From Flavobacterium sp. (lineage in GTDB: Bacteria; Bacteroidota; Bacteroidia; Flavobacteriales; Flavobacteriaceae), in assembly GCF_031411595.1 (NCBI RefSeq), contig NZ_JANOBI010000023.1, positions 304 to 64,303 on the forward strand: a DNA stretch of 64,000 nucleotides, given 5' to 3'. The notes under the pieces were generated by a model. That model saw only the letters and a program-made list of their open reading frames with translations. It had not been told where the DNA came from and searched no databases. Positions 31,958 through 53,522 of the stretch are shown here, in pieces (the stretch's first letter is position 1; the number at the start of each line of letters is the position of its first letter). The translations under genes and the position numbers were made by a program.

Positions 31958-31962
31958 TGTAT

Positions 31963-37034: not shown

Positions 37035-37105
37035 TTTTTTCGCGGCTTTGCGTCTTTGCGAGCCATAAAATAATTTCTCGCGAAGCCGCAAAGCCGCAAA
37101 GTTTG
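37035..37105. repeat. CGCAAAG-family imperfect palindrome (CGCGGCTTTGCGTCTTTGCGAG ... CTCGCGAAGCCGCAAAGCCGCAAAG)
   Basis: The arms are reverse complements of each other with a few mismatches. Same word family as 5575, 58018 and the others. Confidence 0.75.
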
Positions 37106-38180: not shown

Positions 38181-38705
38181 CTAAAGATACATCTCGATCA
38201 ATCCTTCGGGCAAATCCATGATAACTTTTTTGTTGTCGCGGTCGATTTTGACAAGGAAATGATCAATCATTGGGACTAATATTTCTACTTCGCCGTTGAG
38301 CACTTCGAACAAAGGTTGTGCTGTACTGTCATTGACTGCAACGATTTTTCCGAAAACGCCGAGACGTTGGTCTTCAATTTCGAAACCGATGACTTCGTGG
38401 AAATAGAATTTGTTGCCTGTGAGTTTCGGCAGCATTTTTAAGGGCAGATAAACAGCGCTTCCCAACATTCGGTCGGCTTCTTCTTCGTTTTTGACATCTT
38501 CGAAACGCACGCGTAGGAAATCGTTTTTGTGCAGGGAACTGTTTTCAATAAAAAATGGAACCAGATTGTTGTTGAATTCAACAAACACTGATTCCATGTT
38601 TTCATATAATTCGGGTTCATCTGTGTCTAAATAGATTAGCACTTCACCCTTGAAACTGAATTTTTTTGCGATTTTACCTAAATAGAAACAATCTTCTTTA
38701 CGCAT
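38181..38705 (-). CDS. rimM: Ribosome maturation factor RimM
   Basis: 174 aa. Position directly downstream of rpsP. N-terminal GKI.K.F..KGE motif and PRC-barrel length. Confidence 0.85.
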   Translation of the reverse strand: MRKEDCFYLGKIAKKFSFKGEVLIYLDTDEPELYENMESVFVEFNNNLVPFFIENSSLHKNDFLRVRFEDVKNEEEADRMLGSAVYLPLKMLPKLTGNKFYFHEVIGFEIEDQRLGVFGKIVAVNDSTAQPLFEVLNGEVEILVPMIDHFLVKIDRDNKKVIMDLPEGLIEMYL

Positions 38706-38718
38706 TATCGCTTGTCAA

Positions 38719-39420
38719 TTAAGCTTCTGTTTCTTCGCTTGCTTCTTCAGCAGCTGGAGCTTCTTCTGTAGTTTCTGCAACCGGAGCTTCTTCAACTTCA
38801 GCAACAACTTCTTCAGCAGCAGGAGCTTCTGGAGTTTCCACTTCAGCAACTGGAGCTTCTTCTACTACTTCTTCTGTTGCAACTTCAGCTACAGGAGCAT
38901 CAGCAACCACTTCGTCAGCAACCACTTCTTCTGTAGTTTCTTCAACAGCAGCTTCTTCAACAGCAGCTTCAGCTTGTGCAGCTACAGCGATACGTTTTTC
39001 GTTAGCTACTTTTTCAGCTTTTAAAGCTTTGGTTCTAGCATCAGCTTGCGCTTTTGATAAACCATCTTTTTTAGCATCTACTTTACCTGCTTTTGATTCT
39101 AACCAAGCCGCTAATTTAGCATCTGCTTGCTCTTGAGTTAAAGCACCTTTACGAACGCCACCATCAAGGTGATGTTTCAATAACGCTCCTTTGTAAGAAA
39201 GAATTGCTCTTGCTGTATCGGTTGGTTGAGCACCATTGTGCAACCATTGTACTGCGCTATCCAAGTTTAAATCGATAGTTGCAGGATTGGTGTTTGGATT
39301 GTAAGTACCGATTTTCTCTAAGTATTTACCGTCTCTTTTTGAGCGAGCATCTGCCGCTACAACCCAGTAAAAAGGTTTCCCTTTTTTACCATGTCTTTGT
39401 AATCTAATTTTTACTGACAT
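38719..39420 (-). CDS. rpsP: 30S ribosomal protein S16 with a ~150-aa low-complexity Ala/Glu/Val-rich C-terminal extension
   Basis: N-terminus MSVKIRLQRHGKKGKPFYWVVAADARSKRDGKYLEKIGTYNP is canonical S16. The remainder is AEEVV/APVAE-type repeats. Confidence 0.9.
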   Translation of the reverse strand: MSVKIRLQRHGKKGKPFYWVVAADARSKRDGKYLEKIGTYNPNTNPATIDLNLDSAVQWLHNGAQPTDTARAILSYKGALLKHHLDGGVRKGALTQEQADAKLAAWLESKAGKVDAKKDGLSKAQADARTKALKAEKVANEKRIAVAAQAEAAVEEAAVEETTEEVVADEVVADAPVAEVATEEVVEEAPVAEVETPEAPAAEEVVAEVEEAPVAETTEEAPAAEEASEETEA

Positions 39421-39469
39421 AATCGTATGATTAAATTTTGAGGTACTCGACCTCGGTTAATTAAGGGCG

Positions 39470-39477
39470 CAAAGATA
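39470..39477 (-). promoter_or_regulatory. Putative -7 box TATCTTTG for rpsP-rimM
   Basis: Matches TAnnTTTG on the minus strand about 50 nt upstream of the rpsP ATG. Confidence 0.35.
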
Positions 39478-39633
39478 CAGTTTAATTTGAAAAATACTAA
39501 TGCTAAGGTTGTTTTTTAAAAAAGAAAAATCAAATAAAAATTTGAAGCAAACTGTTAAACTATTTTTTTTTCAAATTTTAATTAGAAAATATGTTTTAAA
39601 AAGCTATTTTTGTTTCTCAAAATTGGAAAAGTA

Positions 39634-40134
39634 ATGAAAAGATTTCTTTGTTTTATAATTATTGCTTCGACTTTAATTTCGTGTGGAGAAGACATCAGCA
39701 ATGATAATACAGGTGTTTTTAGAGGTGTTAAAGACAATGGTTTGTGGGAAGGTGGCAATGCTAAGGCTACTATTGGAGTAGGCAGTAAGTTGACTATACA
39801 GGCGGTTACTTTAACAGAAATTATGTCATTAAAAATTCCAATTCCACCGGCTACAATAGATCCAAGAAACCCAGCAACATTTGTGACTTACATTCTTGGT
39901 ACAAGCACTACGAAAAAAGCATCTTATGTTTTAACGGCTAACGATACTCAATATGTTTATGAAACAGGCATCGGAGTGGGCGATGGAGAAGTAGTGATTT
40001 CGCAATATGATGGTTCTAGTATTTCGGGAACTTTTCGATTTAATGCTTTAAATGCTGATCCGAACTCAGAAGGACAACCTTTGGTTAATTTGCAAGATGG
40101 TGTTTTTTATAAAGTACCTGTAGTTTTACCTTAA
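39634..40134 (+). CDS. Lipoprotein of unknown function
   Basis: Start moved to ATG 39634 (MKRFLCFIIIASTLISC lipobox). Confidence 0.65.
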   Translation: MKRFLCFIIIASTLISCGEDISNDNTGVFRGVKDNGLWEGGNAKATIGVGSKLTIQAVTLTEIMSLKIPIPPATIDPRNPATFVTYILGTSTTKKASYVLTANDTQYVYETGIGVGDGEVVISQYDGSSISGTFRFNALNADPNSEGQPLVNLQDGVFYKVPVVLP

Positions 40135-40156
40135 AATCTGTTATTAAAAATAAATG

Positions 40157-40190
40157 AAGCCGTTTCAACAAAATTTGAGACGGCTTTTTT
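40157..40190 (+). terminator. Rho-independent terminator of the lipoprotein gene
   Basis: AAGCCGTTTC-loop-GAGACGGCTT followed by T6. Confidence 0.7.
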
Positions 40191-40234
40191 GTTTTATGAA
40201 AATACGTTTTGAAGCAAAGTTTTAATGATAACCA

Positions 40235-40267
40235 CAAAAAAAGCCCTTCTTTTCAGAAGAGCTTTTT
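40235..40267 (-). terminator. Orphan rho-independent terminator, probably the original tRNA-Leu terminator displaced by island insertion
   Basis: The minus strand reads AAAAAGCTCTTCT-GAAA-AGAAGGGCTTTTTTT immediately after the 13-bp copy of the tRNA-Leu 3' end (40268-40280). Confidence 0.65.
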
Positions 40268-40280
40268 GTGCGGATAATAG
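40268..40280. repeat. attL core (GTGCGGATAATAG), duplicate of the tRNA-Leu 3' end
   Basis: Exact 13-nt match to 48006-48018. A chance occurrence in 64 kb is very unlikely (about 1e-3). Confidence 0.75.
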
Positions 40281-40407
40281 TTATAGAACCTAACATTAGT
40301 CTAAATTAATTAAAATTAAAAAATCCTCATTTTATAGTACTTAACAAGCATTTATTTGAAATTTAATCATATTTAATTCTGTTGAATTAAGCTTAATTAA
40401 TAAATTT

Positions 40408-40425
40408 AGGGGAATAATAGGGGAA
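40408..40425 (+). repeat. 18-bp direct repeat AGGGGAATAATAGGGGAA (left copy), candidate integrase arm-type site
   Basis: Exact second copy at 47933-47950. Internally it is two GGGGAA hexamers 11 bp apart. Confidence 0.6.
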
Positions 40426-40439
40426 TTAAAAAATAGTTT

Positions 40440-40447
40440 TATATTTG
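40440..40447 (+). promoter_or_regulatory. Putative -7 box TATATTTG for the integrase gene
   Basis: Matches TAnnTTTG 15 nt upstream of ATG 40463. It also covers the TTG used as the start by the ORF track. Confidence 0.35.
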
Positions 40448-40462
40448 AGAAAATATGAAATC

Positions 40463-41752
40463 ATGGCTACCGGTAAATTTAGAATTAAGACAACCAACGA
40501 TTGGAATACTATCTTTTACAGATTTAAACATAGTAATCAATTTGATATAGAATGTTCAACAGGAATTCAAATTCCCAACAAACGTTGGAGCGATTCTAAG
40601 CAAGAAGTTTTATCTACAAATGATGTTAACTATACTGACATTAATTCTAGGTTGAAAGGGCTTGATTCATCGATTAGAAAGGAATATGAAAATTCAAAAC
40701 TTAAATCGGAAACAATAAATACAAGTTGGCTCAAAGAAAAGATTAATATCTATTTCAATCGGGAAACTAAAAACGTCGATGTTGACGCAATTATCTTTTT
40801 ATCAAATTACATTGTTGCATTTATTGAAGAAGCAAAAACTAAGAAAACAAGAAATAACACTCTAATTAAACACAGAACGATTCAACATTACACCACAACT
40901 TTAAATAAAATATTGGCTTTCGAAACTCATACTAGAAGTAAATTAAAACTTGTGGATTTAAGCTTAAATTTTCATACCAAATTCATTGAGTTTTTAGAAA
41001 CAGAACAAAAGCTTAACCCAAACACTATTGGCGGTTATGTTGATGATTTAAAATTGTTTTGCAATAATGCTGACAAAAAAGGAATTGCAATTTCTAAGGA
41101 ATTTAAACTTTCCGAATTTTATACACCATCAAATAAAACCAAAGACATTTATTTGAATGAAAAAGAGATTAATCAAATATATAATGCTGTCTTTGAGCAA
41201 GATTATTTAGACAATGCAAGAGATTGGTTTATTATAGGTTTAAGAACTGGATTTAGAGTTTCAGATTTTCTAAAACTTACCCCAAAAAACCTTATTGATG
41301 GTTTCATTGAAAAGCAAACTTTAAAAACTGACTTTCCGGTAATTATCCCAATTCACGATCAAGTGAAAGCTATATTAGAAAAAAGGAATGGAGATTTTCC
41401 TAGAAAAATCAGCGACCAAAAGTTTAATGACTATATCAAAATTATTTGCAAAGAAATAGAACTGAATGAAATGGTAGATGGTGCTAAAATTGCACCGATT
41501 AAGTTAAAAGAGAATGGGAAGGAGGTAATACATCGTAAAAAGTTTGACAAATTTCCTAAACACGAATTGGTTACTTCTCATATTTGTAGACGATCATTTG
41601 CTACAAATTTATATGGTAAAATAGATACTTTAACAATAATGAAAATTACTGGTCATAAAACAGAAAGTCAATTTTTGGCTTATATAAAAATTACTCCTAG
41701 AGAGTATGCGGAGAAGTTAAAAACTTATTGGAAGAATGCCCAAATTGCATGA
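40463..41752 (+). CDS. Tyrosine-type site-specific integrase (Bacteroidota phage-integrase family with N-terminal arm-binding domain)
   Basis: Start moved to ATG 40463 (MATGKFRIKTT...). Catalytic residues visible in GLRTGFRVSD (R), SHICRRSFAT (HxxR) and GHKTESQFLAYI (H...Y). Confidence 0.9.
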   Translation: MATGKFRIKTTNDWNTIFYRFKHSNQFDIECSTGIQIPNKRWSDSKQEVLSTNDVNYTDINSRLKGLDSSIRKEYENSKLKSETINTSWLKEKINIYFNRETKNVDVDAIIFLSNYIVAFIEEAKTKKTRNNTLIKHRTIQHYTTTLNKILAFETHTRSKLKLVDLSLNFHTKFIEFLETEQKLNPNTIGGYVDDLKLFCNNADKKGIAISKEFKLSEFYTPSNKTKDIYLNEKEINQIYNAVFEQDYLDNARDWFIIGLRTGFRVSDFLKLTPKNLIDGFIEKQTLKTDFPVIIPIHDQVKAILEKRNGDFPRKISDQKFNDYIKIICKEIELNEMVDGAKIAPIKLKENGKEVIHRKKFDKFPKHELVTSHICRRSFATNLYGKIDTLTIMKITGHKTESQFLAYIKITPREYAEKLKTYWKNAQIA

Positions 41753-41831
41753 AATTGACTATCAGAAACCTAAAAAACAAAGGTTTTACAAATAAAATGT
41801 TTAAAATAGAACAGTAATTAAAATGAAAAAT

Positions 41832-44800
41832 CTACGCTAGTATTTGCTCAACCTTACTTAATGCTTCTCTAAAATTTAATGCTTTAGATTTTGAATTAAC
41901 ATAACCATCTGTTGCATCATCAATTAATTTATTGATATAAAATATACCGGTATCCGATTTGGCAGTTTCCAATTTTGCTTTTATCTCTATTAATTTCGCA
42001 AAAGTTTTTTTATAGCCTTCAGTAGATTTTGAAAGATTTGAAACATATGTTGTAAGGAATGAGCTAAGTCCACTAAAACCAATATGACCCCTATCTTCAA
42101 GATAAATTATTTTAAACAGTTTTTCTAAAATATTATAGTCCGCAATAGTGTTGTAATGTGTATATGAGTTTTCTTTTAAGGATGGTATTGATTTTTGATT
42201 AAGAAATGAAAATAAATATTTTAAAGCATTCAAAGAATTTAGTTCGAACAAAATCGCAAGTGCATTGGAATAATAATAATTTTTTTCTGGGTCAATTTCC
42301 GCTTCTAGAAATTCTATTGCTTTTTTAATACAGAATTCGGGTTCTAGTTTAAAATCCATCATTATTTTTAAAGCAGACCAGCAGTGATGAGATTTAGCAT
42401 CTACACAGCAATCTTTCAACAAATAAATATCATTTGTTAATTGATAAAGTTGTTCAAGTTTCTTGTCAATATTAAAACTATGACTAGCACTAAACAGATA
42501 CTGCCTAATTTTATCGAATGTTGCAACAAGGTTATTATCTAACGCATATTGAATATGTTTTGATAAAGTAATATAGGTTAAATCCCGGTTCAATAAGTTA
42601 TAAATTATTCTTTCATCAAACTGTTTTTTATCACTTATTCTTTTCGAAAGTTTTTGAAAGTTTTTATCTTCATCACTCGACTTCTCCACATCAAAAAACT
42701 CCATCGAGTTTAGATAAAATTCCTGAGACAATTCGAAATTTAATTTATGCATAAAGAACAGTACCAACTTCAATTTTTCATAATCTTCAAGTATGACGAA
42801 ATGATTACCTTTAGATTGCATTATTTTATCAAATCTGATTTTTTGAGAAACTTTCGTACACCATAACTGTATAAATTCCTTTTGATTCTCTCTAACCACA
42901 AATCTATCTCCCGAATTTTTTAAGCCCTCAACTTGTGATTTAATTTTAGAGATGATTACTAATGGGTTTTTCAATATTTTCTTAACTTCATTGTAGTCTA
43001 AAGAATCCTTTATATCATAAATTATCCTGCTAAGAACTGTATAAGACATGTCGATTGTACTCCCATGTCCATTGTTGTCGTACCACTTCATATCGATGGT
43101 TCTGATTTTCTTTTCATCAATCAGTTCGCCATTTTCATCAAATATTTTTTTAATTTTTGACAACAATTTTCTTTTATTAAAAAGCAAGTCGAAATTTTCT
43201 TGTGCTTTATTATCACTTTTAGCTTTGACCACCGCAAATTCTTTTTCAAATAAGAATTGATGGTTAAAGGTAAAGCCTGCCTCAATCATAGTGTTATTAA
43301 ATTTACCAGCCAACTCCCGATTACCATGATTGGCAATAACATTTCTGTAAAAATCCAAATCCTTACTTTCGATTGAACCGTCTTTGAAATTTTCAATAAC
43401 AATATCAATGGTTTTTTCATTTGTAATCGATGCAAGGAAATAGCCGACGTTATTAGACGTAAAGTTTTTAATTAAATATTGAAACGCAGCAATTTGAGAT
43501 TCTGGTTTACTTTTTAAAATCAATGTCCGTAGATAATTTTCCCGTAGATGGTATTTTGTTTTATCTTCAAAAGAAGATAATAAATCTACCAAAAAGCCTT
43601 CTTCAGAATTATCAAAATGCAAACACTTCTCTATTATTTCTTCTGCAAATTTGTTGTCACTAAAGTTATTTGTGTTTTCATCAAAATAGTACTTCGCAAA
43701 TTCAATAAAATGTGCAGAAGATTTGAATCTTATGATTATTTGCTCGAGAGTCCAACTGTTTCCTCTCATCACATCATCTACTATATCTCTTGGTATAATT
43801 TTTTTATCACGTAAAAATTCATCTTTGACATACCAAAAGAAATCATCAATGGGTTCGTGTTTTTCAATTAAAGAAAGTAATGCTTTATTAATTTGTTTAC
43901 TGGTTTCTTTTTTGAATAGCTCAAATATTTTTTCTAAATACTTGTTGTCGCTTTCGCAAAGTTTTTGATCGTATATAAAATCTAGAATATGCGATTTTAT
44001 ATCTTCTGTTGTACTTTTTAACAACCCAAATAAATCATTTTTTAATTTTTCCTTTTTGGAAGTCGGAATAGTAAAATGGCCAAGCAAATCTAAAGCAGAA
44101 ATTCTTACGCGAAAATGACTTGTATTATCATTAATTATTGTGTTTAAATAATCGAAATTTTCTTCGCAATTGCCAAATTCAGCAATTTCCTTTACGCTTG
44201 AAACTTTACTATTATTAATCCAATAGGTCTTTTCAATGCATTCTGATTGGAAATATCCCTGAAAAACTTTTACCCTAAAATTGCTAATCCTGTTTTTGTC
44301 TGCTTTAAAGAGGAGTTCCGGCTGATTGTCAATGAACCATTGAACCAAAGAATCATACTTTGCATCACTCAAAATATTAATTAAAAAGGTAACTGTATTG
44401 AATAGAGAAGGGTGCGTTTTATCAGTCCCATCGATGAGGATAAATTTTTTTATTTCTTCAAAATCAAGACTAGATATTAATTCCGCAGCAAAATACTCTT
44501 GAATATTTCTATGCTCAAAAAAATAGTTTTCCAGACCCGGCTTTTTATCTATTAAGGGATTCTTTTTAAATTCATTAAAGTCACTTGTGTTGTCTTTAAT
44601 CGAACAAAATAAATTGTCTTCCGTTATTATATTGCTTTTCATTAACTCATTAATAAGGGAAATTTTTTTGGAGAATTTTTTTATTAATGGAGTATTCAAC
44701 TCAACTTTTTTCAGCTTATCATTTTTATCATGCGTCAATCTTGTGTTGATGTATGTTTCCCAAAGCTCAAAAGTATTAAGTGGTGTTTTTTTATATTGGT

Positions 44801-45995
44801 TAATATAATTTGCTAATATCTCAACCTGAAATGGAGTTTTTAAAAAATCATAAAGCATTTCATTAAAGCTAAGACTGTCAATTATAGACCCGCATTTATA
44901 TGTCAATAATTTTAAACTTTTATAACGAGACAAATCTTTTAAATAATATTTTTTAAATCCTTTGATATCCTTGACAATACTTTCATAAACATTAGTCCTG
45001 CAACTTATTATGCATTTATATTTATCAGAATTATCTTCTTTGCTTAAAAAAACGACCAACTTAGATTTAAAATACTCAATATCTGCTATCTCATCGATAC
45101 CATCAAGTATTAGTAATACATTGCTTAACTCATCGATTTGGGGTGGCAAATAATCTTCTATTGTATCTGTATTTGTAAAATCCCTCAAGTTTCTAAATAT
45201 TGGAACAGAGCCTTGAACTTCTCCTGTTTTCCAATTTTTTAAAGCAAATGTCATGAGTTCTGTCGTTTTTCCTGTGCCGGGATTACCCAAGAGAAATATT
45301 TTACTTTCTTTTTCAAGAATTTTAATAAGCTCATTTGCCCTTTTATCTTCATCCCATAAGAAAGTATATCCGTCTGTTTTATCTTCTGAGAATTCTCTTT
45401 CGATTAAGTTGTCAGTTAACTTAATATCCCCAAGATAATTCGACTTGTCCTTCTCGGATATTAAAACTTTTTTAAATGGTTTTCTGGATAAAATTATACT
45501 CTTAAACCGCTCTATTTCTTTTTCCTCATCAACAGCAAAATCTACATCTTTTCCATATAGTTGTTTATAAAAGGAGTTGTTTAAAGCAAATAGTTCTTTG
45601 ATACCATTTGACAGGTCTAATTGGTAATAACTGAATTTAAATTTTTCGCTTAATGTTGGAGATAATTTCTCTGAATTATCATCATTTGAAAAATTAGATC
45701 TAGGGTTGATGGCTATAAATAAATCATTTCTATCCAACGTATAATTTGACTCTAAGTTTAAGCCCTTTTTTAATATGTTACCAATCGCCACATCAGACTT
45801 ATAATTTTTACATTCTATAAAAATTCTACTCTCATTGTAATCTTTAGAAATCATTATTAAGATATCAAATCCATTTTGATTTCCAGATTTCATAGGTAGT
45901 GTTTGTGTAACGGTAAAGCCAATTTTTTCAAATAACCAGACGAAAAATTCTTGGGTAATTATTTCGAAACTACTTCCTATTTGCTGACTTGTCAT
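41832..45995 (-). CDS. NLR-like STAND protein: N-terminal PD-(D/E)xK (Mrr-like) nuclease, NACHT NTPase and ~850-aa helical C-terminal region
   Basis: GFD(43)...IE(61)CK(63) nuclease motif. Walker A GNPGTGKTT (237-245), Walker B LLILDGIDE (294-302), CIISCRTN, and the NACHT winged-helix signature FFEHRNIQEYFAAE. Confidence 0.8.
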   Translation of the reverse strand: MTSQQIGSSFEIITQEFFVWLFEKIGFTVTQTLPMKSGNQNGFDILIMISKDYNESRIFIECKNYKSDVAIGNILKKGLNLESNYTLDRNDLFIAINPRSNFSNDDNSEKLSPTLSEKFKFSYYQLDLSNGIKELFALNNSFYKQLYGKDVDFAVDEEKEIERFKSIILSRKPFKKVLISEKDKSNYLGDIKLTDNLIEREFSEDKTDGYTFLWDEDKRANELIKILEKESKIFLLGNPGTGKTTELMTFALKNWKTGEVQGSVPIFRNLRDFTNTDTIEDYLPPQIDELSNVLLILDGIDEIADIEYFKSKLVVFLSKEDNSDKYKCIISCRTNVYESIVKDIKGFKKYYLKDLSRYKSLKLLTYKCGSIIDSLSFNEMLYDFLKTPFQVEILANYINQYKKTPLNTFELWETYINTRLTHDKNDKLKKVELNTPLIKKFSKKISLINELMKSNIITEDNLFCSIKDNTSDFNEFKKNPLIDKKPGLENYFFEHRNIQEYFAAELISSLDFEEIKKFILIDGTDKTHPSLFNTVTFLINILSDAKYDSLVQWFIDNQPELLFKADKNRISNFRVKVFQGYFQSECIEKTYWINNSKVSSVKEIAEFGNCEENFDYLNTIINDNTSHFRVRISALDLLGHFTIPTSKKEKLKNDLFGLLKSTTEDIKSHILDFIYDQKLCESDNKYLEKIFELFKKETSKQINKALLSLIEKHEPIDDFFWYVKDEFLRDKKIIPRDIVDDVMRGNSWTLEQIIIRFKSSAHFIEFAKYYFDENTNNFSDNKFAEEIIEKCLHFDNSEEGFLVDLLSSFEDKTKYHLRENYLRTLILKSKPESQIAAFQYLIKNFTSNNVGYFLASITNEKTIDIVIENFKDGSIESKDLDFYRNVIANHGNRELAGKFNNTMIEAGFTFNHQFLFEKEFAVVKAKSDNKAQENFDLLFNKRKLLSKIKKIFDENGELIDEKKIRTIDMKWYDNNGHGSTIDMSYTVLSRIIYDIKDSLDYNEVKKILKNPLVIISKIKSQVEGLKNSGDRFVVRENQKEFIQLWCTKVSQKIRFDKIMQSKGNHFVILEDYEKLKLVLFFMHKLNFELSQEFYLNSMEFFDVEKSSDEDKNFQKLSKRISDKKQFDERIIYNLLNRDLTYITLSKHIQYALDNNLVATFDKIRQYLFSASHSFNIDKKLEQLYQLTNDIYLLKDCCVDAKSHHCWSALKIMMDFKLEPEFCIKKAIEFLEAEIDPEKNYYYSNALAILFELNSLNALKYLFSFLNQKSIPSLKENSYTHYNTIADYNILEKLFKIIYLEDRGHIGFSGLSSFLTTYVSNLSKSTEGYKKTFAKLIEIKAKLETAKSDTGIFYINKLIDDATDGYVNSKSKALNFREALSKVEQILA

Positions 45996-46015
45996 GGGAT
46001 ATAAGTGTTGTTTAT

Positions 46016-46023
46016 CAAATGTA
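46016..46023 (-). promoter_or_regulatory. Putative -7 box TACATTTG for the NLR-like gene
   Basis: Matches TAnnTTTG on the minus strand 20 nt upstream of ATG 45995. Confidence 0.3.
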
Positions 46024-46492
46024 ACTTTTAATACAATCGATTTATATTTTAATCACAAAAAATATGTGGGTGTCATTGGTATACCTCGTTTTTTAACAAC
46101 CAATCATGAACCTAATTGAATTGTTTCAAGGATAATTGTTTCATGTCACACCATGAATAAAAAGATCTTATAAAATTTGACTAAATCAAAAAGTGCATTT
46201 CTCATGTTACACATTAAATAAAACAATCGTTGGAAATTGCATCAAATAAGGATTTGATTAGGATTCTCTATGGTTGAATGGTGATGTATTCCTATATGGG
46301 GAATTGACACGGCTGAAATCCTAAGTCGTAAAACTTTTTTTAAATATTAAATAATATGAAAAAGTAAAAATTTTCATGTCCGAAAAGTATCATCATGAAT
46401 AAATAATTTGCCCACGTAAATATTTTATAACCAAATGAAAATATGTTGATTTTTTTCTAAAACCAACATATTTATATATAAACATAAATACT

Positions 46493-46684
46493 ATGAAAAA
46501 TAATACAAAACAAAAAAGACTAACTATGAAAACGACTAGAATTTTAAAGACGGTAATTATTCTTATAATTATAATTTATCATTATCAAAATCATGATTTT
46601 GAATCAATTGTTAAAAGTCTATTTTTCTTAATAGACGAAATTAAAATTCCAAACAAAGAAAAGGAAGAAGACAACGACAAATAA
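46493..46684 (+). CDS. Hypothetical 63-aa single-TM peptide
   Basis: ATG start, one hydrophobic segment (ILKTVIILIIIIY) and an acidic/lysine-rich tail. No homology recognisable by eye and may not be expressed. Confidence 0.3.
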   Translation: MKNNTKQKRLTMKTTRILKTVIILIIIIYHYQNHDFESIVKSLFFLIDEIKIPNKEKEEDNDK

Positions 46685-46700
46685 CATTTTCCACCTATAA

Positions 46701-47548
46701 CTTAGGTGTTTTTGTTATCATTAATTTTGAAACACTACCAGTTATCTATGATTGCTTTTAAACTTTACTATTATTAAATTTTAAGCCCAAAAATAAATCT
46801 TCAAAATACTGTGTAAAACACTAAAGCTCCTCGAAAAGCAAATCGTTTTTCTACCTAAGCGTTTCAAATGAGTTCGTAAAGTCAAATTGTTTCGCTCAAT
46901 AATATTGGTGCAATATTGAAACCGTTTATGGATAGTATTAGGAATCAAAGCAGGATAAATATTTAATCGGTCAGTATAGATATGCTTGGGTGCAGATAAA
47001 ATCAATTGGTTAACCAAAGGTTGAATATTCTCCTTTGTTTTAGCACCCAATACAAAGCCAACAATAGCCCTGCTTTTCCTTTCTATGGCATAAGTAATCC
47101 ATGCAACATTAGTTTTATTGCCGATAAATGTCCAAATCTCATCCATTTCATAAGAGCATCCATTTTGTAAAAGTGGTTTTGGCTTTAATTTTTTTCCAAT
47201 GGATATGATGCGGGTTAGAACCGTATTCTTTGATATATTCAGAATTCTGCCTATACTTCTGATGCCACAACTCTCTTTCAACAATGTGATTATTGAAGCA
47301 TTGGTAGTATGTATATAAGCTTGATACTTATAAGTAGTTTGAAATTTATTTTGGCACAGCTTACATTTATATCGCTGTACTTTTGATTGAAATCCATTTT
47401 TAACAGATGTTCCGCTACACTTAGGGCAATATACTTTTTCCATCCCCTAATTTAATACACGTAGGCAAAACAAAGCCTCTATTCAGACAATCTAATAAAA
47501 TTTAAATCTTGAAGGCATAGATTTCTATAAGAAAAAACAACACTTAGA
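46701..47548 (-). mobile_element. IS1-family insertion sequence (boundaries tentative)
   Basis: Transposase ORF 46781..47443. Only weak candidate terminal inverted repeats (CTTAGGTGTTTTTGTT at 46701 versus the reverse complement TCTAAGTGTTGTTTTTT at 47532-47548). No target-site duplication identified. Confidence 0.55.
46781..47443 (-). CDS. IS1-family transposase (fused InsA-like zinc finger/HTH plus DDE domain)
   Basis: 220 aa. N-terminal CPKCSG...YKCKLC zinc finger, an HTH-like segment, and DDE-region length typical of single-ORF IS1-family elements. Confidence 0.75.
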   Translation of the reverse strand: MEKVYCPKCSGTSVKNGFQSKVQRYKCKLCQNKFQTTYKYQAYIHTTNASIITLLKESCGIRSIGRILNISKNTVLTRIISIGKKLKPKPLLQNGCSYEMDEIWTFIGNKTNVAWITYAIERKSRAIVGFVLGAKTKENIQPLVNQLILSAPKHIYTDRLNIYPALIPNTIHKRFQYCTNIIERNNLTLRTHLKRLGRKTICFSRSFSVLHSILKIYFWA

Positions 47549-47602
47549 TTTTTTACTAGATGCTGTTTTTCAGCGTTTTAATTTCAAAATTAAGTGCATG
47601 CC

Positions 47603-47875
47603 CTAAGTTGATACATTACCGGCATCAAGAACTTCATTAAGAAAAGCTTCATTTAATTTGTAATTTTCACCATCTAATTCAAAATCATTACCTAAATACT
47701 TAGGATAATTATTGGAACTTCTTTCAAATTCATGTTCGTGATAATTATAATTTGGATAATCATTTTTTCCAATAACATAGACTTCTAATTTTACCAATAA
47801 TGATTTTTTCTCTGCTTCAGATTTGGCTGAAAACTCTAACGAATTAAGAATATTAAAGAACGATTGTTTTTTCAT
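47603..47875 (-). CDS. Hypothetical 90-aa protein (island cargo)
   Basis: ATG start in an isolated interval. Acidic, Asn/Tyr-rich. No motif recognised. Confidence 0.4.
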   Translation of the reverse strand: MKKQSFFNILNSLEFSAKSEAEKKSLLVKLEVYVIGKNDYPNYNYHEHEFERSSNNYPKYLGNDFELDGENYKLNEAFLNEVLDAGNVST

Positions 47876-47932
47876 TGTCAGATTAATTATAGTTAATCTA
47901 AGTTAATGAATTCAAGAAAGGAAAAGTAAAAA

Positions 47933-47950
47933 GGGGAATAATAGGGGAAG
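47933..47950 (+). repeat. 18-bp direct repeat AGGGGAATAATAGGGGAA (right copy)
   Basis: Exact copy of 40408-40425. Confidence 0.6.
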
Positions 47951-47954
47951 ATAA

Positions 47955-48000
47955 AATTAAAAAATCTCTAAATCGCTATATTTAAACGTTTTAGAGATTT
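47955..48000 (-). terminator. Island-encoded rho-independent terminator now serving tRNA-Leu
   Basis: Perfect 10-bp stem AATCTCTAAA (47964-47973) / TTTAGAGATT (47991-48000). On the minus strand it is followed by TTTTTAATTTT. Confidence 0.65.
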
Positions 48001-48005
48001 TTAAA

Positions 48006-48018
48006 GTGCGGATAATAG
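48006..48018. repeat. attR core (GTGCGGATAATAG) within the tRNA-Leu 3' end
   Basis: Exact match to 40268-40280. Confidence 0.75.
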
Positions 48019-48088
48019 GACTCGAACCTACACGCCTTGCGGCACCAGATCCTAAGTCTGGCATGTCTACCAATTTCACCATATCCGC
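48007..48088 (-). tRNA. tRNA-Leu (anticodon UAG)
   Basis: Hand-folded. Acceptor GCGGATA/TATCCGC; anticodon stem CCAGA/TCTGG with loop CTTAGGA; long variable arm GCCGCAAGGCG; T-arm GTAGG-TTCGAGT-CCTAT; discriminator A. Confidence 0.9.
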
Positions 48089-48109
48089 TCAATTGTGGGT
48101 GCAAATATA
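48089..48109 (-). promoter_or_regulatory. Putative tRNA promoter/leader motif TATATTTGCACCCACAATTGA (contains TATATTTG -7 box)
   Basis: Matches TAnnTTTG and is nearly identical to the tRNA-Ser upstream string at 8711-8730. Confidence 0.5.
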
Positions 48110-48115
48110 AATATA

Positions 48116-48147
48116 ATTCTCAATTATCAATTCTCAATTCTCAATTT
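48116..48147. repeat. Tandem 7-8-mers (AATTCTCA/ATTATCA)
   Basis: Read directly between tRNA-Leu and the dipeptidase gene. Confidence 0.7.
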
Positions 48148-48199
48148 TTTTATCAGTGTTTATTTTATACATTTGAAACTATAAAACTTTCAAACCAAC

Positions 48200-49588
48200 A
48201 TGGACACTATAAAATCGTACGTGCAGCAGCACAAAGATCGCTTCATTGAAGAATTAATCGAATTGCTTAAAATCCCTTCCGTCAGTGCTGATCCTGTTTA
48301 TTCTCAAGATGTTATCGATACTGCAGATGCCGTAAAAGCAAGCCTTGAAAAAGCAGGTTGTGATTTCGTGGAAATTTGCGACACACCGGGTTATCCAATC
48401 GTTTACGGAGAAAAAACCATCGACAAAAATCTACCTACGATATTAGTCTACGGACATTACGACGTTCAACCGCCAGATCCAATGGATTTGTGGACATCGC
48501 CACCCTTCGAACCTGTCATCAAAACCACCGACATTCATCCCGAAGGTGCTATTTTCGCACGCGGTTCTTGTGACGACAAAGGTCAAATGTATATGCACGT
48601 GAAAGCGTTAGAATATATGGTGCAATCCAATACGCTGCCTTGCAATGTCAAGTTTATGATTGAAGGCGAAGAGGAAGTCGGCTCCAAAAGCTTAAGCTGG
48701 TTCGTCGAGCGCAATCAAGAAAAACTCAAAAACGATGTCATCTTGATTTCCGATACGGGTATGATTTCAAACCAACAGCCATCCATCACCACCGGTTTAC
48801 GCGGATTGAGTTATGTAGAAGTAGAAGTAACCGGCCCAAACCGCGACCTACATTCCGGATTATACGGCGGCGCAGTGGCCAATCCAATCAACGTTTTAGC
48901 CAAAATGATTGCGTCGCTTCACGATGAAAACAACCACATTACGATTCCGGGTTTTTACGACAAAGTAGAAGAACTCACGACAGCCGAAAGAGCTGAAATG
49001 GCCAAAGCACCATTCAATTTAGAAAATTATAAAAAAGCATTAGACCTTAACGATATCTATGGCGAAAAAGGCTACGTAACCAACGAAAGAAACTCCATCA
49101 GACCAACGCTAGATGTCAACGGAATTTGGGGCGGTTACACCGGTGAAGGCGCAAAAACTGTTATAGCCAGTAAAGCCTACGCCAAAATTTCGATGCGTTT
49201 GGTACCACACCAAGATTGGGAAGAAATCACCGAATTGTTCACCAAACATTTCGAAAGCATTGCTCCAGCAGGCGTGACCGTAAAAGTAAAACCACACCAT
49301 GGCGGGCAAGGTTATGTGACGCCCATCGACAGTATCGGCTATCAAGCTGCGAATAAAGCCTACACCGAAACCTTTGGCGTTCCTGCCATTCCGGTGCGTT
49401 CGGGTGGTAGTATTCCGATTGTCGCGCTGTTCGAAAAGGAACTCAAAAGTAAAACCATTCTGATGGGATTTGGTCTCGATAGCGATGCGATTCACTCGCC
49501 AAATGAGCATTTTGGGATTTTTAATTACCTCAAAGGCATTGAAACGATTCCGTTGTTTTACAAATATTTTGTAGAATTAAGTAAATAA
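48200..49588 (+). CDS. M20-family dipeptidase
   Basis: 462 aa. HYDVQP, GSCDDKG and EGEEEVGS motifs of M20 metallopeptidases. Confidence 0.85.
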   Translation: MDTIKSYVQQHKDRFIEELIELLKIPSVSADPVYSQDVIDTADAVKASLEKAGCDFVEICDTPGYPIVYGEKTIDKNLPTILVYGHYDVQPPDPMDLWTSPPFEPVIKTTDIHPEGAIFARGSCDDKGQMYMHVKALEYMVQSNTLPCNVKFMIEGEEEVGSKSLSWFVERNQEKLKNDVILISDTGMISNQQPSITTGLRGLSYVEVEVTGPNRDLHSGLYGGAVANPINVLAKMIASLHDENNHITIPGFYDKVEELTTAERAEMAKAPFNLENYKKALDLNDIYGEKGYVTNERNSIRPTLDVNGIWGGYTGEGAKTVIASKAYAKISMRLVPHQDWEEITELFTKHFESIAPAGVTVKVKPHHGGQGYVTPIDSIGYQAANKAYTETFGVPAIPVRSGGSIPIVALFEKELKSKTILMGFGLDSDAIHSPNEHFGIFNYLKGIETIPLFYKYFVELSK

Positions 49589-49662: not shown

Positions 49663-49751
49663 GGGCGTTACCACAAGGGTCGGGCTTTCCACTCTCAACC
49701 TTTTGTGACGGTGTTCCTCACAAAAGGTTTTCCACTACAATCCCTAACGCG
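49663..49751 (+). repeat. Palindromic intergenic element, copy B
   Basis: GGGCGTTACCACAAGGGTCGGGCTTTCCACT...CCTTTTGTGA-CGGTGTTC-CTCACAAAAGG...TCCACTACAATCCCTAACGCG. Closest to copy A. Confidence 0.8.
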
Positions 49752-49790
49752 GACCGAACAGACCAAGTAAAGCCATTGCAAAGCATAGGT

Positions 49791-53428: not shown

Positions 53429-53446
53429 AAACTTAATTTTAAAACA

Positions 53447-53454
53447 CAAATATA
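53447..53454 (-). promoter_or_regulatory. Putative -7 box TATATTTG for the two-ATPase operon
   Basis: Matches TAnnTTTG on the minus strand about 18 nt upstream of ATG 53428. Confidence 0.35.
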
Positions 53455-53522
53455 CATATTTAAATATATGCAAAAATGAATATTTAATTTTATAATTCAA
53501 ATGTTAAAACAAATCCTACATC

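What the first reader, a model, noticed from the sequence alone, without database searches (positions are those of the whole stretch)
40268..48018. 7.7-kb integrase island inserted into the 3' end of tRNA-Leu(UAG)
Seen: the last 12 nt of tRNA-Leu plus 1 nt (GTGCGGATAATAG, 48006-48018) are repeated exactly at 40268-40280. A tyrosine integrase gene (R...HxxR...H...Y visible) starts 183 bp inside the left repeat. Between the repeats lie the NLR-like gene, a ~500-bp non-coding AT-rich stretch, an IS1-family element and two small orphan ORFs. There are no phage structural, replication or conjugation genes. Known: integrases commonly target tRNA 3' ends and regenerate the tRNA, leaving a short direct repeat. 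Inference: this is a minimal integrative defence islet, possibly mobilisable only in trans. The integrase lies at the end distal to the intact tRNA, which is the less common arrangement.
Basis: partly seen in the sequence, partly recalled or inferred. Interest (0 to 1): 0.65.

Follow-up and report, generated by a model that had tools for sequence, protein, structure and literature searches.

The report
IS1-truncated integrase island in tRNA-Leu
A 7.7-kb piece of foreign DNA carrying an integrase and a likely anti-phage gene was inserted into the end of a leucine tRNA gene of a Flavobacterium; it is a real but ordinary mobile island, and this copy has lost its putative excision/regulator and replication genes next to an insertion sequence.

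Summary
GTGCGGATAATAG occurs only at 40268 and 48006, and the second copy is the 3' end of an intact tRNA-Leu(UAG). The insertion is well supported. A related species (L084/L085) keeps both flanks but has no island, and joins 40267 to 48006 as predicted. The native tRNA terminator now sits orphaned just outside the left repeat. Island GC is 28%, against 37-39% in the flanks.

The islet belongs to a large Flavobacteriaceae family of tRNA-Leu elements. Members have int at the far end, variable cargo in the middle (often defence genes), then a VapE/DUF5906 helicase-primase, a ~105-aa protein, an HTH_17 protein and a ~300-aa protein next to the tRNA. A tandem arm motif (GGGGAAnnnnnGGGGAA) lies at fixed distances inside both ends and co-varies with the integrase lineage.

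The window copy is not natively minimal. Compared with its closest relative (21.8 kb), 13.3 kb is missing exactly where the IS1 sits. "orf90" is the first 84 codons of the ~300-aa backbone gene. What remains is an intact integrase, both att sites, a nuclease-NACHT STAND gene, orf63 and IS1.

Verdict: a new, decayed member of a known kind. Mobility was not tested. Interest is modest.

The parts
40238..40267 (-). Orphaned native terminator of tRNA-Leu. It was displaced to the far side of the island and marks the chromosomal flank of attL.
   Evidence: A hairpin plus T-run is found by the scan. It folds at -19.1 kcal/mol, z = -5.6, and the 43 nt folded here are identical to the first 40 nt of the hairpin region that directly follows the tRNA in the empty-site relative L084. 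The same type of terminator abuts the tRNA in 12 other Flavobacterium loci.
40268..40280 (.). attL core: the displaced copy of the tRNA-Leu 3' end (GTGCGGATAATAG).
   Evidence: Exact repeat, chance expectation 0.01. Identity to attR stops at both edges of the 13-mer here, and at the inner edge of the left copy in the siblings L086, L091 and the L001 contig.
40409..40425 (+). P-arm tandem motif GGGGAATAATAGGGGAA (11-nt period), 141 nt from the attL core and 37 nt upstream of the int start. Putative arm-type binding site, overlapping the likely int promoter region.
   Evidence: It is identical and at the same distance (141-142 nt) in L086, L090, L091 and the L001 contig, while the surrounding arm sequence has diverged. 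Other element lineages carry a different motif that is repeated in both of their own arms.
40463..41752 (+). Tyrosine integrase, 429 aa, apparently intact.
   Evidence: Pfam PF13102 and PF00589 and PHROG integrase. It is 76-83% identical to the closest homologues in other assemblies, and 80.5% identical to the integrase of the complete element L086. R261, HxxR373-376, H398 and Y407 are invariant.
41832..45995 (-). Cargo: a 1387-aa STAND NTPase. It has an N-terminal PD-(D/E)xK Mrr-like nuclease domain, a NACHT domain, and then about 1000 aa with no family match. Putative anti-phage sensor-effector.
   Evidence: NACHT and nSTAND3 pass the Pfam cut-offs. Mrr_cat scores 21.2 bits against a cut-off of 21 when the N-terminus is scanned alone. 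D...ExK, Walker A (GNPGTGKT) and Walker B (LILDGIDE) can be read directly. There are 196 relatives, almost all Flavobacteriaceae where a source names them; some carry a Trypsin_2 (PF13365) domain that this protein lacks. No PADLOC match.
45996..46492 (.). AT-rich non-coding region between the divergent STAND gene and orf63. It is part of the cargo cassette.
   Evidence: It aligns colinearly with the L001-contig element. Conservation is patchy, with blocks of 94-98% identity at 46200-46250 and 46450-46500. No Rfam match.
46493..46684 (+). orf63, a small hydrophobic protein conserved next to the STAND gene.
   Evidence: A 63-aa gene is called at the same position beside the 76%-identical STAND gene in L094 and L095. 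DNA homology to that element ends at its stop codon. No family match.
46700..47609 (-). IS1-family insertion sequence (transposase 46781-47443, 220 aa, intact). The ends are approximate. It occupies the deletion junction.
   Evidence: NCBIfam transpos_IS1 equivalog, E = 1e-48, full length. Pfam DDE_Tnp_IS1. Imperfect terminal inverted repeats lie around 46700/46721 and 47593/47607. A separate 966-bp assembly contig, L093, equals w46674-47639. No target-site duplication was found. Single copy in the window.
47603..47875 (-). orf90: the truncated 5' end (first 84 codons) of the ~300-aa backbone gene next to attR. A pseudogene fragment that runs into IS1.
   Evidence: 87% identical to residues 2-84 of the 296-aa protein of L001. 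Full-length homologues are 296-301 aa. DNA homology starts at w47628.
47933..47949 (+). P'-arm tandem motif GGGGAATAATAGGGGAA, 73 nt before the attR core, in the same orientation as the P-arm copy.
   Evidence: (D4). The same position holds it in L086 (19233) and L001 (9688).
47960..48002 (-). Element-borne hairpin plus T-run that replaces the native terminator just 3' of the tRNA.
   Evidence: Folds at -16 kcal/mol, z = -6.3. Non-native hairpins, differing in sequence between groups of loci, sit at this position in the occupied-type loci shown.
48006..48018 (.). attR core: the 3' end of the intact tRNA.
48006..48088 (-). tRNA-Leu(UAG), intact. This is the integration target.
   Evidence: ARAGORN and Rfam at 58.7 bits. 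It is 100% identical over 83 nt to the tRNA in about two dozen Flavobacterium genomes.

Best explanation
**What it is.** Window 40268-48018 is an integrative element, 7,738 bp from repeat to repeat.

**How it got there.** It entered the chromosome by tyrosine-integrase site-specific recombination. The exchange took place between a 13-bp core in the element's attP and the identical 3' end of tRNA-Leu(UAG). Three consequences can be read in the sequence:
- The tRNA was regenerated from the element's own core copy.
- The element supplied a replacement terminator hairpin for the tRNA.
- The original tRNA end and its terminator were displaced 7.7 kb away, to attL.

**The family.** It belongs to a widespread Flavobacteriaceae family, laid out as follows:
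- int lies next to attL.
- A variable cargo slot follows, often holding defence genes.
- A leftward module lies next to attR: VapE/DUF5906 helicase-primase, a ~105-aa protein, an HTH_17 protein and a ~300-aa protein.
- Paired 11-nt-phased motifs sit in both arms. I infer these are arm-type sites for the integrase's N-terminal domain.

**This copy.** An IS1 insertion with an adjoining ~13-kb deletion removed the HTH_17, ~105-aa and VapE-like genes and all but 84 codons of the ~300-aa gene. What remains:
- an intact integrase
- both att sites and both arm motifs
- a nuclease-NACHT STAND gene with orf63
- the IS

**Inferred state.** I infer the STAND gene acts as a phage sensor that triggers DNA cleavage. 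The islet is now probably a largely fixed defence locus. Excision, if it still happens, would rest on the integrase alone or on factors supplied in trans. Transfer would need a helper.

**Shown versus inferred.**
- Shown: insertion, att structure, family membership and truncation.
- Inferred: arm-site function, the defence role and the present state of mobility.
For: 1. **Repeat and tRNA.**
2. **Empty site.** L084 and L085 come from a related species (81-87% nt identity). They carry pepM20, tRNA-Leu, the native terminator, DUF6252 and rpsP (and rimM in L085) with no island. The junction is ...CAGAAGAGCTTTTT|GTGCGGATAATAGGACTCG, which is 40267 joined to 48006.
3. **Terminator.** The terminator left of attL is the one that follows the tRNA in the empty sites.
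4. **Composition.** GC is 0.282 in the island against 0.386 and 0.372 in the flanks.
5. **Siblings.** Elements with 76-81% identical integrases (88% nt identity for the L001 contig) show the same architecture: L086-L089, L091, L096, L098 and the L001 contig (L094+L001). Where the right end lies within the fetched locus (L086, L001 contig), it abuts the same tRNA-Leu/pepM20 site. More distant lineages at the same site are L005, L028 and L031, and L078 shows the same layout in Tenacibaculum.
6. **Arm motifs.** They sit at +141/142 and -73 from the cores. They co-vary between both arms in five lineages. An exact tandem with an 11-nt period occurs in at least 8 occupied loci, against a 6.9% background.
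7. **Truncation.** Homology to the 21.8-kb element on the L001 contig runs over w40263-41758, w41839-46683 and w47628-49588. IS1 fills the gap where 13.3 kb is missing. orf90 equals residues 2-84 of a 296-aa protein. No HTH_17 or VapE remnant exists anywhere in the window.
8. **Cargo.** NACHT/nSTAND3 plus an Mrr-like nuclease. Sibling cargos include Abi_2, type IIG and type I restriction-modification, a SLFN-like ATPase and SMODS+S_4TM.
Against: - No circular attP form and no same-species empty allele was seen. The only other copies are 100% identical occupied alleles in two samples of one study.
- The direction of the size difference from the L001-contig element is inferred. Part of its 13.3 kb (S8 peptidase and T9SS proteins) could be a later gain there rather than a loss here. 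The truncated ~300-aa gene is the direct evidence of loss.
- No target-site duplication or clean inverted repeats define the IS ends.
- The STAND protein matches no PADLOC model, and its nuclease domain is only borderline by Pfam.
- An IntN1-like integrase from a Riemerella island both integrates and excises without accessory genes (PMC6764341). 'Locked in' is therefore not established.
- The left flank differs between the window and its closest relative L001.
Confidence: 0.8

Rival explanations
1. The islet is a functional, natively minimal 'integrase plus cargo' defence island. It still excises with its integrase alone and is moved between cells by a helper phage or conjugative element.
For: - The integrase is full length with invariant catalytic residues.
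- The 13-bp cores are perfect, and both arm motifs and the replacement terminator are intact.
- Precedents exist. The Riemerella 10K island excises with its integrase and attP alone (PMC6764341). Pseudomonas tmRNA islands carrying only intY plus defence cargo are transduced by jumbo phages (PMC12595487).
Against: - Every sibling whose right end could be read keeps a VapE/DUF5906 gene and an HTH_17 gene, and five of them (L086, L091, L096, L001 contig, L098 in part) keep the full leftward module of VapE/DUF5906, ~105-aa, HTH_17 and ~300-aa genes. Those genes are therefore part of the family's normal make-up.
- Here that module is replaced by IS1, and the remaining ORF is a gene fragment.
- No second location or host of this exact derivative was found.
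Confidence: 0.15
2. The family, and so this remnant, is a phage satellite of the P4/PICI/VEIME kind rather than a plain genomic island or a conjugatively mobilised element. In this reading the lost module served helper-dependent replication and packaging, and the cargo slot is a satellite defence hotspot.
For: - The siblings combine int, an AlpA/Xis-like HTH_17 protein and a VapE/primase-helicase in 7-22 kb, with no structural genes. The VapE gene matches PHROG phage primase/helicase families.
- This is the gene set described for satellites and for marine VEIMEs, some of which were found integrated in Flavobacteria (PMC9618062).
- No relaxase was seen in any sibling.
Against: - No capsid, terminase-small-subunit or packaging-interference genes were recognised.
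- No relative of the integrase was found in IMG/VR viral contigs with the single-sequence scan.
- The ~300-aa and ~105-aa backbone proteins have no detectable homology or fold match.
- No helper is known. The window copy lacks the whole module in any case.
Confidence: 0.3
3. The repeat is coincidental, or the region is a recombination-generated variable segment or degraded prophage rather than a site-specific insertion.
For: - The region downstream of this tRNA varies in nearly all Flavobacterium genomes.
- The left flank is not syntenic with the closest relative.
- A second low-GC variable segment without an integrase lies just beyond pepM20.
Against: - Chance expectation for the 13-mer is 0.01.
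- The empty site has the exact predicted junction.
- The native terminator sits at attL.
- In every element where both ends could be read, the repeat coincides with the island boundaries.
- No phage structural genes occur in this copy or its siblings.
Confidence: 0.03

Closest known systems
NBU1 / MTnPi4-type integrative mobilizable elements of Bacteroidota (IntN1 family)
   Same: - Same phylum and roughly 10 kb in size.
- A tyrosine integrase inserts into the 3' end of a tRNA-Leu gene (PMC5704250, table).
- A short common core is used.
- Direct-repeat arm sites bound by the integrase are reported for NBU1 (Wood et al. 2013, cited in PMC5704250; details from my own knowledge).
- NBU1 excision needs an RDF plus further element genes, including a primase-like gene.
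   Different: - No MobP relaxase or oriT was recognised in the window or in any sibling.
- The backbone is VapE/DUF5906, a ~105-aa protein, an HTH_17 protein and a ~300-aa unknown.
- The cargo is mostly defence genes rather than toxin-antitoxin or resistance genes.
- Similarity of this integrase to IntN1 was not measured.
Phage satellites (P4-like, PICI) and marine VEIMEs
   Same: - The siblings carry int, an AlpA/excisionase-type HTH protein and a primase/helicase, and lack virion genes.
- Sizes are 7-22 kb and the integration site is fixed.
- Defence genes sit in a variable slot. VEIMEs were reported integrated in Flavobacteria (PMC9618062).
- P4 is known to carry defence hotspots (my own knowledge: Rousset et al. 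2022).
   Different: - No capsid-remodelling or packaging genes were found, and no helper is known.
- There is no evidence of encapsidation.
- The window copy has lost the regulatory and replication module altogether.
Integrase-only defence islands next to tmRNA/tRNA genes (for example the Pseudomonas I55-type islands and VPI-1)
   Same: They are flanked by direct repeats, lie immediately downstream of a small RNA gene, and encode a tyrosine integrase plus phage-defence cargo with no autonomous transfer genes. Transfer is in trans by phage (PMC12595487).
   Different: - Different phylum, target (tmRNA) and integrase family.
- Those islands are natively integrase-only, whereas this one became so by truncation.
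Riemerella anatipestifer 10K genomic island
   Same: Same order (Flavobacteriales). It is a ~10-kb island at a tRNA gene with an IntN1-like tyrosine integrase. Excision and a circular form were demonstrated (PMC6764341).
   Different: It targets Arg-tRNA, has a 53-bp repeat, and its integrase lies next to the tRNA. The integrase alone suffices for excision, which is untested here.
Avs / bacterial NLR-like (bNACHT) antiviral STAND proteins (for the cargo gene)
   Same: It has a tripartite layout: an N-terminal nuclease effector, a STAND NTPase and a long C-terminal sensor. The N-terminal domain differs among relatives. It lies in a mobile defence slot.
   Different: It matches no PADLOC model. 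The NCBIfam EruA hit scores 21.7 bits against a cut-off of 1000. The C-terminal ~1000 aa match no family. Function is untested.

Membership tests
tRNA-targeting tyrosine-integrase integrative element (genomic island) | Tyrosine recombinase with the catalytic R...HxxR...H...Y residues | tested here: met
   PF00589 and PF13102. R261, H373xxR376, H398 and Y407 are invariant in 120 homologues.
tRNA-targeting tyrosine-integrase integrative element (genomic island) | Direct repeats at both ends that equal the 3' end of the target tRNA, with an intact tRNA at one end | tested here: met
tRNA-targeting tyrosine-integrase integrative element (genomic island) | An unoccupied site in relatives that joins the outer flank directly to the tRNA | tested here: met
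   L084 and L085: the native terminator abuts the tRNA, and synteny is conserved on both sides. These come from a related species, not the same species.
tRNA-targeting tyrosine-integrase integrative element (genomic island) | Excision to a circular attP form and a repaired attB | not testable with these tools
   No read-level data are available. Only occupied alleles were found.
Flavobacteriaceae tRNA-Leu element family (int ... VapE/DUF5906, ~105 aa, HTH_17, ~300 aa) | Integrase of the same clade, plus arm motif pairs at +141/142 and -73 from a 13-bp core in tRNA-Leu | tested here: met
   Integrase 76-83% identical at the protein level. DNA 88% identical to the L001-contig element. Motif positions.
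Flavobacteriaceae tRNA-Leu element family (int ... VapE/DUF5906, ~105 aa, HTH_17, ~300 aa) | A VapE/DUF5906 helicase-primase gene and an HTH_17 gene | tested here: not met
   No trace is present anywhere in the window. These genes are present in L086, L091, L096, L098 and L001. The window copy is therefore a truncated derivative, not a complete member.
Flavobacteriaceae tRNA-Leu element family (int ... VapE/DUF5906, ~105 aa, HTH_17, ~300 aa) | A full-length ~300-aa gene next to attR | tested here: not met
   Only codons 1-84 remain.
Phage satellite (P4-like / PICI / VEIME) | Helper-phage-dependent induction and packaging, with genes that redirect the capsid or packaging | not testable with these tools
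   No such genes were recognised. No relatives were found in IMG/VR with a single-sequence scan. The unknown backbone proteins have no fold match.
NBU-type integrative mobilizable element | Relaxase (MobP) and oriT | tested here: not met
   There are no relaxase domains in the window ORFs, nor in the precomputed Pfam of the sibling loci. oriT was not searched for.
Avs / bNACHT antiviral STAND (cargo) | STAND NTPase core with Walker A and Walker B, plus an N-terminal effector domain | tested here: met
   NACHT 28.4 bits and nSTAND3 29.6 bits, both above their cut-offs. Mrr_cat 21.2 bits against a cut-off of 21, with D...ExK present. GNPGTGKT and LILDGIDE can be read.
Avs / bNACHT antiviral STAND (cargo) | A match to a curated defence-system model, and demonstrated phage protection | tested here: not met
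   No PADLOC hit. EruA scores far below its cut-off. Protection cannot be tested here.
IS1 family insertion sequence | IS1 DDE transposase, terminal inverted repeats and a target-site duplication | tested here: inconclusive
   The transposase meets the equivalog model. The inverted repeats are imperfect, with a 12-nt perfect core at 46721/47582. No target-site duplication was found, which fits an adjacent deletion.

The most novel reading that the evidence does not exclude
The family this islet belongs to may be an undescribed, Flavobacteriaceae-wide class of helper-dependent 'hitcher' elements, such as phage satellites. Its features would be:
- a dedicated tRNA-Leu(UAG) site
- lineage-specific, 11-nt-phased arm-site pairs
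- two backbone proteins with no known fold (~300 aa and ~105 aa)
- a swap-in defence-cargo slot

The window copy would then be a snapshot of how such an element is domesticated into a fixed defence locus by an IS-mediated deletion that spares the integrase and the immune gene.
Probability: 0.3. Interest if true: 0.55.

Novelty: new member of a known kind. Interest (0 to 1): 0.35.

Why it matters
**For annotation**
- It shows that the STAND gene is recently acquired mobile cargo.
- 'orf90' is a pseudogene fragment.
- The hairpin at 40238-40267 is a displaced tRNA terminator.

**More broadly**
- The comparison reveals a large, coherent family of tRNA-Leu elements in Flavobacteriaceae. The integrase has more than 3,900 homologues at E <= 1e-20.
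- Where it could be read, the variable middle of these elements often holds defence genes: type IIG and type I restriction-modification, Abi_2, a SLFN-like ATPase, SMODS+S_4TM and NACHT proteins. That slot could be a practical place to mine for new defence genes in this group.
- The co-varying arm motifs give a testable model of integrase specificity that could be turned into site-specific integration tools for Flavobacterium.

The islet itself is an ordinary, decayed example.

Tried and rejected
- **Same-species empty allele or other locations.** Exact-protein look-ups of DUF6252, the integrase and the IS1 transposase returned only 100%-identical copies of this same locus, in two runs with neighbouring SRA accession numbers. 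The contig breaks in L082, L083 and L093 gave no alternative junctions.
- **Most genome loci.** The scan of 80 genome loci with pepM20 did not reproduce the window's left flank. Only L054 and L070 place rpsP next to pepM20, and there the tRNA lies on the other side. The empty site came from the metagenome pattern scan instead.
- **IMG/VR.** The scan with the integrase found no relatives. It is a single-sequence scan that reaches only close relatives, so this is weak negative evidence.
- **PDB sequence searches.** Neither the integrase nor the STAND N-terminus gave a hit.
- **The ~300-aa backbone protein.** Pfam, PHROGs, an AlphaFold2 model (pLDDT 81.6 for the best model, the other four below 52) and Foldseek against PDB and BFVD all returned nothing with E < 1. 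Its function remains unknown.
- **PADLOC.** No hits for any island ORF.
- **Rfam.** Only the tRNA and the S16 leader matched in 39400-48300.
- **IS1 ends.** No target-site duplication was found, and the exact ends remain uncertain.
- **Sigma-70 promoter scan.** Uninformative: 56 sites found against 50.6 expected. Bacteroidota use a different promoter consensus.
- **Rejected readings.** Chance repeat, prophage remnant, and conjugative or relaxase-bearing IME. See the rival explanations and the membership tests.


Full report
**1. The observation**

ARAGORN finds tRNA-Leu(tag) on the minus strand at 48006-48088. Rfam places it at 48007-48088 with 58.7 bits. GTGCGGATAATAG is the reverse complement of the tRNA's last 13 nt. 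It occurs exactly at 40268-40280 and 48006-48018 and nowhere else in the window, even with one mismatch allowed. Chance expectation is 0.01. Weak similarity continues to 25 nt (D12).

- a tyrosine integrase, with its ATG at 40463, 183 bp inside the left repeat
- a 1387-aa NACHT/nSTAND3 protein on the opposite strand
- a 497-bp AT-rich gap
- a 63-aa ORF
- an IS1-family transposase
- a 90-aa ORF

The flanks are core genes. On the left are rimM, rpsP (with its S16 leader) and a DUF6252 lipoprotein. On the right is an M20 dipeptidase. Island GC is 0.282, against 0.386 and 0.372 for the flanks.

**2. Is it an insertion?**

The dipeptidase was used to fetch 80 loci from Flavobacteriaceae genomes. 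The window is a Flavobacterium; the closest locus is the MAG L001, with 96% aa identity in the dipeptidase. tRNA-Leu lies next to the dipeptidase throughout the genus, and the tRNA is 100% identical in about two dozen loci. Homology to the window almost always stops at 48006 or a few bases beyond.

Reading the 150 nt downstream of the tRNA in each locus gave two classes.
- Twelve loci have a hairpin of the form AAAAAAGCTTCT...AGAAGCTTTTTT directly after the tRNA. I take this to be the native terminator.
- The remaining loci do not have it. At least eleven of them instead carry a different hairpin preceded by a tandem short motif.

In the window, the native-type terminator (aaaaaagcccttcttttcagaagagcttttt) is not next to the tRNA. 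It sits immediately outside the left repeat, at 40238-40267. It folds at -19.1 kcal/mol, z = -5.6. That position is what integration into the tRNA 3' end predicts.

The direct test was a metagenome scan for the left flank plus the core. It returned two contigs, L084 and L085, from a related species with 81-87% nt identity. Their gene order is pepM20, tRNA-Leu, native terminator, DUF6252, rpsP (and rimM in L085), with no island. The junction reads ...cagaagagcttttt|GTGCGGATAATAGGACTCGAACC.

The pattern forced 16 nt of flank identity. The kilobases of synteny on both sides are independent evidence.

Exact-protein look-ups found the occupied allele, 100% identical, in two sequencing runs with neighbouring SRA accession numbers. 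No same-species empty allele was found.

**3. What family is it?**

The integrase has more than 3,900 homologues at E <= 1e-20, and the close ones that carry a source name are from Flavobacteriaceae. I examined contexts of integrases 76-81% identical to this one and the element on the L001 contig, whose attL-int segment is 88% identical at the DNA level. In five of the seven contexts (L086, L091, L096, L098, L001 contig) they share one architecture. Of the other two, L090 (F. amniphilum) showed different genes within the 10 kb fetched, including a DUF3987 primase/helicase-type gene, and L097 ran off the fetched locus before any such module appeared.

| Position | Content |
|---|---|
| attL | native terminator plus the 13-bp core |
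| about 142 bp inside attL | the motif GGGGAATAATAGGGGAA |
| next | int, reading inward |
| middle | a variable cargo block |
| leftward module | VapE/DUF5906 helicase-primase, a ~105-aa protein, an HTH_17 protein, a ~300-350-aa protein |
| 73 nt before attR | a second copy of the GGGGAA pair |
| next | an element-borne hairpin |
| attR | the 13-bp core at the end of tRNA-Leu, followed by pepM20 |

Cargos seen in the siblings:

| Locus | Cargo |
|---|---|
| L086 | Abi_2 and a type IIG restriction-modification enzyme |
| L091 | NYN, a SLFN/AlbA_2 ATPase and an MmeI-like restriction-modification enzyme |
| L098 | DUF4325 with HATPase_c, and an MmeI-like restriction-modification enzyme |
| L097 | nucleases and a type I HsdR |
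| L096 | T9SS-secreted proteins and a Peptidase_M43 protein |
| L001 contig | a DUF4209 protein, a STAND gene 76% identical to the window's, orf63, an S8 peptidase and SMODS+S_4TM |

More distant lineages occupy the same site with the same polarity, their integrases being 31-45% identical: L005, L028 (32-nt repeat, 6.9 kb) and L031 (13-nt repeat, 9.2 kb). L078 shows the same layout in Tenacibaculum. These carry HTH_17, primase-VapE and, in L031, Fic.

In every element where both ends could be read, the integrase lies next to the distal repeat.

**4. Arm motifs**

The GGGGAA pair lies 141/142 nt from the attL core in the window, L086, L090 and L091. It lies 73 nt before the attR core in the window, L086 and L001. 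The surrounding arm DNA has diverged.

Other lineages carry a different pair with the same 11-nt period, and each has it in both of its arms:

| Lineage | Motif |
|---|---|
| Window, L086, L090, L091, L001 | GGGGAA |
| L005, L031 | TTCGGCAA |
| L028 | GGTTGGGCAA |
| L078 | TCGTGCAA |

An exact 6-mer tandem with an 11-nt period occurs in at least 8 occupied loci. No such 11-nt tandem occurs in any locus with a native terminator (one, L011, has an unrelated 13-nt one). The background rate is 6.9% of random windows.

Co-variation of the two arms within each element argues for an element-specific DNA-binding protein. I infer this is the integrase's N-terminal arm-binding domain. PF17293, which I know as an integrase arm-type DNA-binding domain (own knowledge, not checked here), is annotated in a 61%-identical homologue but did not score in the window protein. 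The left pair also sits just upstream of a TAnnTTTG box before int, so it may double as an operator. That is inference, and the promoter consensus is from my own knowledge.

Identity between attL and attR ends at both edges of the 13-mer in the window, and at the inner edge of the left copy in L086, L091 and the L001 contig. Strand exchange therefore lies within those 13 bp.

**5. This copy is truncated**

I aligned the window with the 21.8-kb element reconstructed from L094 and L001. That element lies on the same contig, with cores 21,751 bp apart. Three colinear blocks result:

| Window | Identity | Content |
|---|---|---|
| 40263-41758 | 88% | attL and int |
| 41839-46683 | 76% | STAND, upstream region and orf63 |
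| 47628-49588 | 84% | right arm, tRNA and pepM20 |

A 1.7-kb gene is absent between int and STAND. In addition, 13.3 kb is absent between orf63 and the right arm. The IS1, at about 46700-47609, fills that second gap to within about 20 nt on each side.

orf90 is 87% identical to residues 2-84 of the 296-aa gene next to attR in L001. Full-length relatives of that gene are 296-301 aa. No remnant of the VapE, ~105-aa or HTH_17 genes exists anywhere in the 64 kb.

The IS has an intact 220-aa transposase that meets the NCBIfam IS1 equivalog model. Its terminal repeats are imperfect, and no target-site duplication was found. This fits an IS-associated adjacent deletion. Which parts of the 13.3 kb were lost here, rather than gained in the relative, cannot be fully separated. 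The truncated gene is the hard evidence for loss.

**6. Cargo**

The 1387-aa protein has these features:
- a PD-(D/E)xK signature (D43...E60-x-K62), with Mrr_cat at 21.2 bits against a cut-off of 21 when the N-terminus is scanned alone, and a weak NA-iREase1 hit
- a NACHT core with GNPGTGKT and LILDGIDE
- about 1000 further residues with no family match

Relatives are almost all from Flavobacteriaceae, and some carry a Trypsin_2 (PF13365) domain that this protein lacks. That pattern is typical of NLR-like defence proteins. The protein hits no PADLOC model, and its EruA score is far below the cut-off. I therefore call it 'Avs/bNACHT-like' by architecture, not a member of a curated family.

The 497-bp upstream region and orf63 travel with it. 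The upstream region contains blocks of 94-98% identity.

**7. Mechanism and present state**

Shown:
- site-specific insertion into the tRNA 3' end
- regeneration of the tRNA
- provision of a substitute terminator (hairpin at -16 kcal/mol, z = -6.3)
- displacement of the native end

Inferred:
- The integrase binds the core and the paired arm sites.
- The family's HTH_17 protein is the excisionase or AlpA-type regulator.
- VapE/DUF5906 replicates the excised circle.

By that reading the window copy can no longer regulate or replicate itself and is on its way to becoming a fixed defence locus. However, a Riemerella island's IntN1-like integrase performs both integration and excision with attP alone (PMC6764341). 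NBU1, by contrast, needs an RDF and further genes (PMC5704250). Residual excision therefore cannot be excluded.

Transfer would need a helper in any case. No relaxase, T4SS or virion gene was seen in any member.

**8. Comparison and novelty**

The closest known kinds are:
- Bacteroidota NBU1/MTnPi4 IMEs, which share the tRNA-Leu 3' end target; here there is no relaxase
- phage satellites and VEIMEs, which share the int, AlpA and primase gene set; packaging is unproven here
- integrase-only defence islands next to tmRNA, which are transduced by jumbo phages (PMC12595487)
- the Riemerella 10K island

The islet is a new, decayed member of a known kind. The family-level picture has moderate interest: a dedicated site, co-varying arm motifs, unknown backbone proteins and a defence slot. 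I did not find it described in the papers searched. That is not proof of novelty.

**9. Verdict**

The insertion is strongly supported. 'Minimal islet' should be revised to 'IS1-truncated remnant'. Interest 0.35.

Noticed in passing
window 49750-53522: A second low-GC variable segment lies just beyond pepM20. It holds two STAND/AAA-type ATPase genes: an 822-aa ATPase_2/AAA_16 + TPR protein at 49791-52259, and a 414-aa AAA/nSTAND1 protein at 52256-53500. The segment is absent from L001. In L084 a ~440-bp stretch with a small unrelated ORF takes its place. No integrase or flanking repeat was seen.
   Followed up: partly
L084 3782-3907, L085 60-207, L018 4244-4350: The 'empty' sites in these relatives carry a second copy of [native terminator + first 14 nt of the tRNA-Leu 3' end] about 94-104 bp outside the tRNA. 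The two copies are separated by a 46-48-nt spacer that is homologous between species (..ATAAACTTCTCrTCCTT..CCAC). Within a genome the two terminator copies are near-identical. This could be a scar of an older integration. It remains unexplained.
   Followed up: partly
window 39430-39461 (minus strand): The Rfam S16-Flavobacteria ribosomal protein leader lies upstream of rpsP (38.1 bits, gathering score 35.7). This is ordinary.
   Followed up: no
window 46175-46252 and 46400-46500: Within the AT-rich region upstream of the STAND gene, some blocks are 94-98% identical to the L001-contig element, against 76% for the whole aligned block (STAND, upstream region, orf63). They include repeated CATGTnACA-like words. 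They may be regulatory sites or a small RNA. There is no Rfam hit.
   Followed up: partly
window 38181-40267 versus L094 17436-21925 / L091 4442-9646: The left flank of the island differs between the window (rimM, rpsP, DUF6252) and its closest relatives (mevalonate-pathway genes, UbiA, a pseudouridine synthase, SnoaL), although the right flank is the same. This suggests a chromosomal rearrangement with a breakpoint at this tRNA/island site.
   Followed up: no
L054 8581-11534, L070 7870-10955: In two Flavobacterium MAGs, rpsP lies directly next to pepM20. There tRNA-Leu sits on the other side of pepM20 in the opposite orientation, an alternative local gene order.
   Followed up: no
L022 8898-9144: Three copies of the tRNA-Leu 3' end (GTGCGGGTAATAG) occur at 82-nt spacing. 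They look like tandem tRNA genes or fragments.
   Followed up: no
window 49663-49750, 31962-32047, 37039-37102: A ~90-nt repeated intergenic element (..GGGCTTTCCACTCTCAACC..CAAAAGGTTTTCCACTACAATCCCTAACGC) is also present in L084. It is probably a REP-like repeat of Flavobacterium.
   Followed up: no
L094 1-1138 / L001 5162-6163: The 21.8-kb sibling element carries a SMODS nucleotidyltransferase next to an S_4TM effector, a CBASS-like pair. It also carries a DUF4209/EMARD_N 536-aa gene between int and the STAND gene.
   Followed up: no
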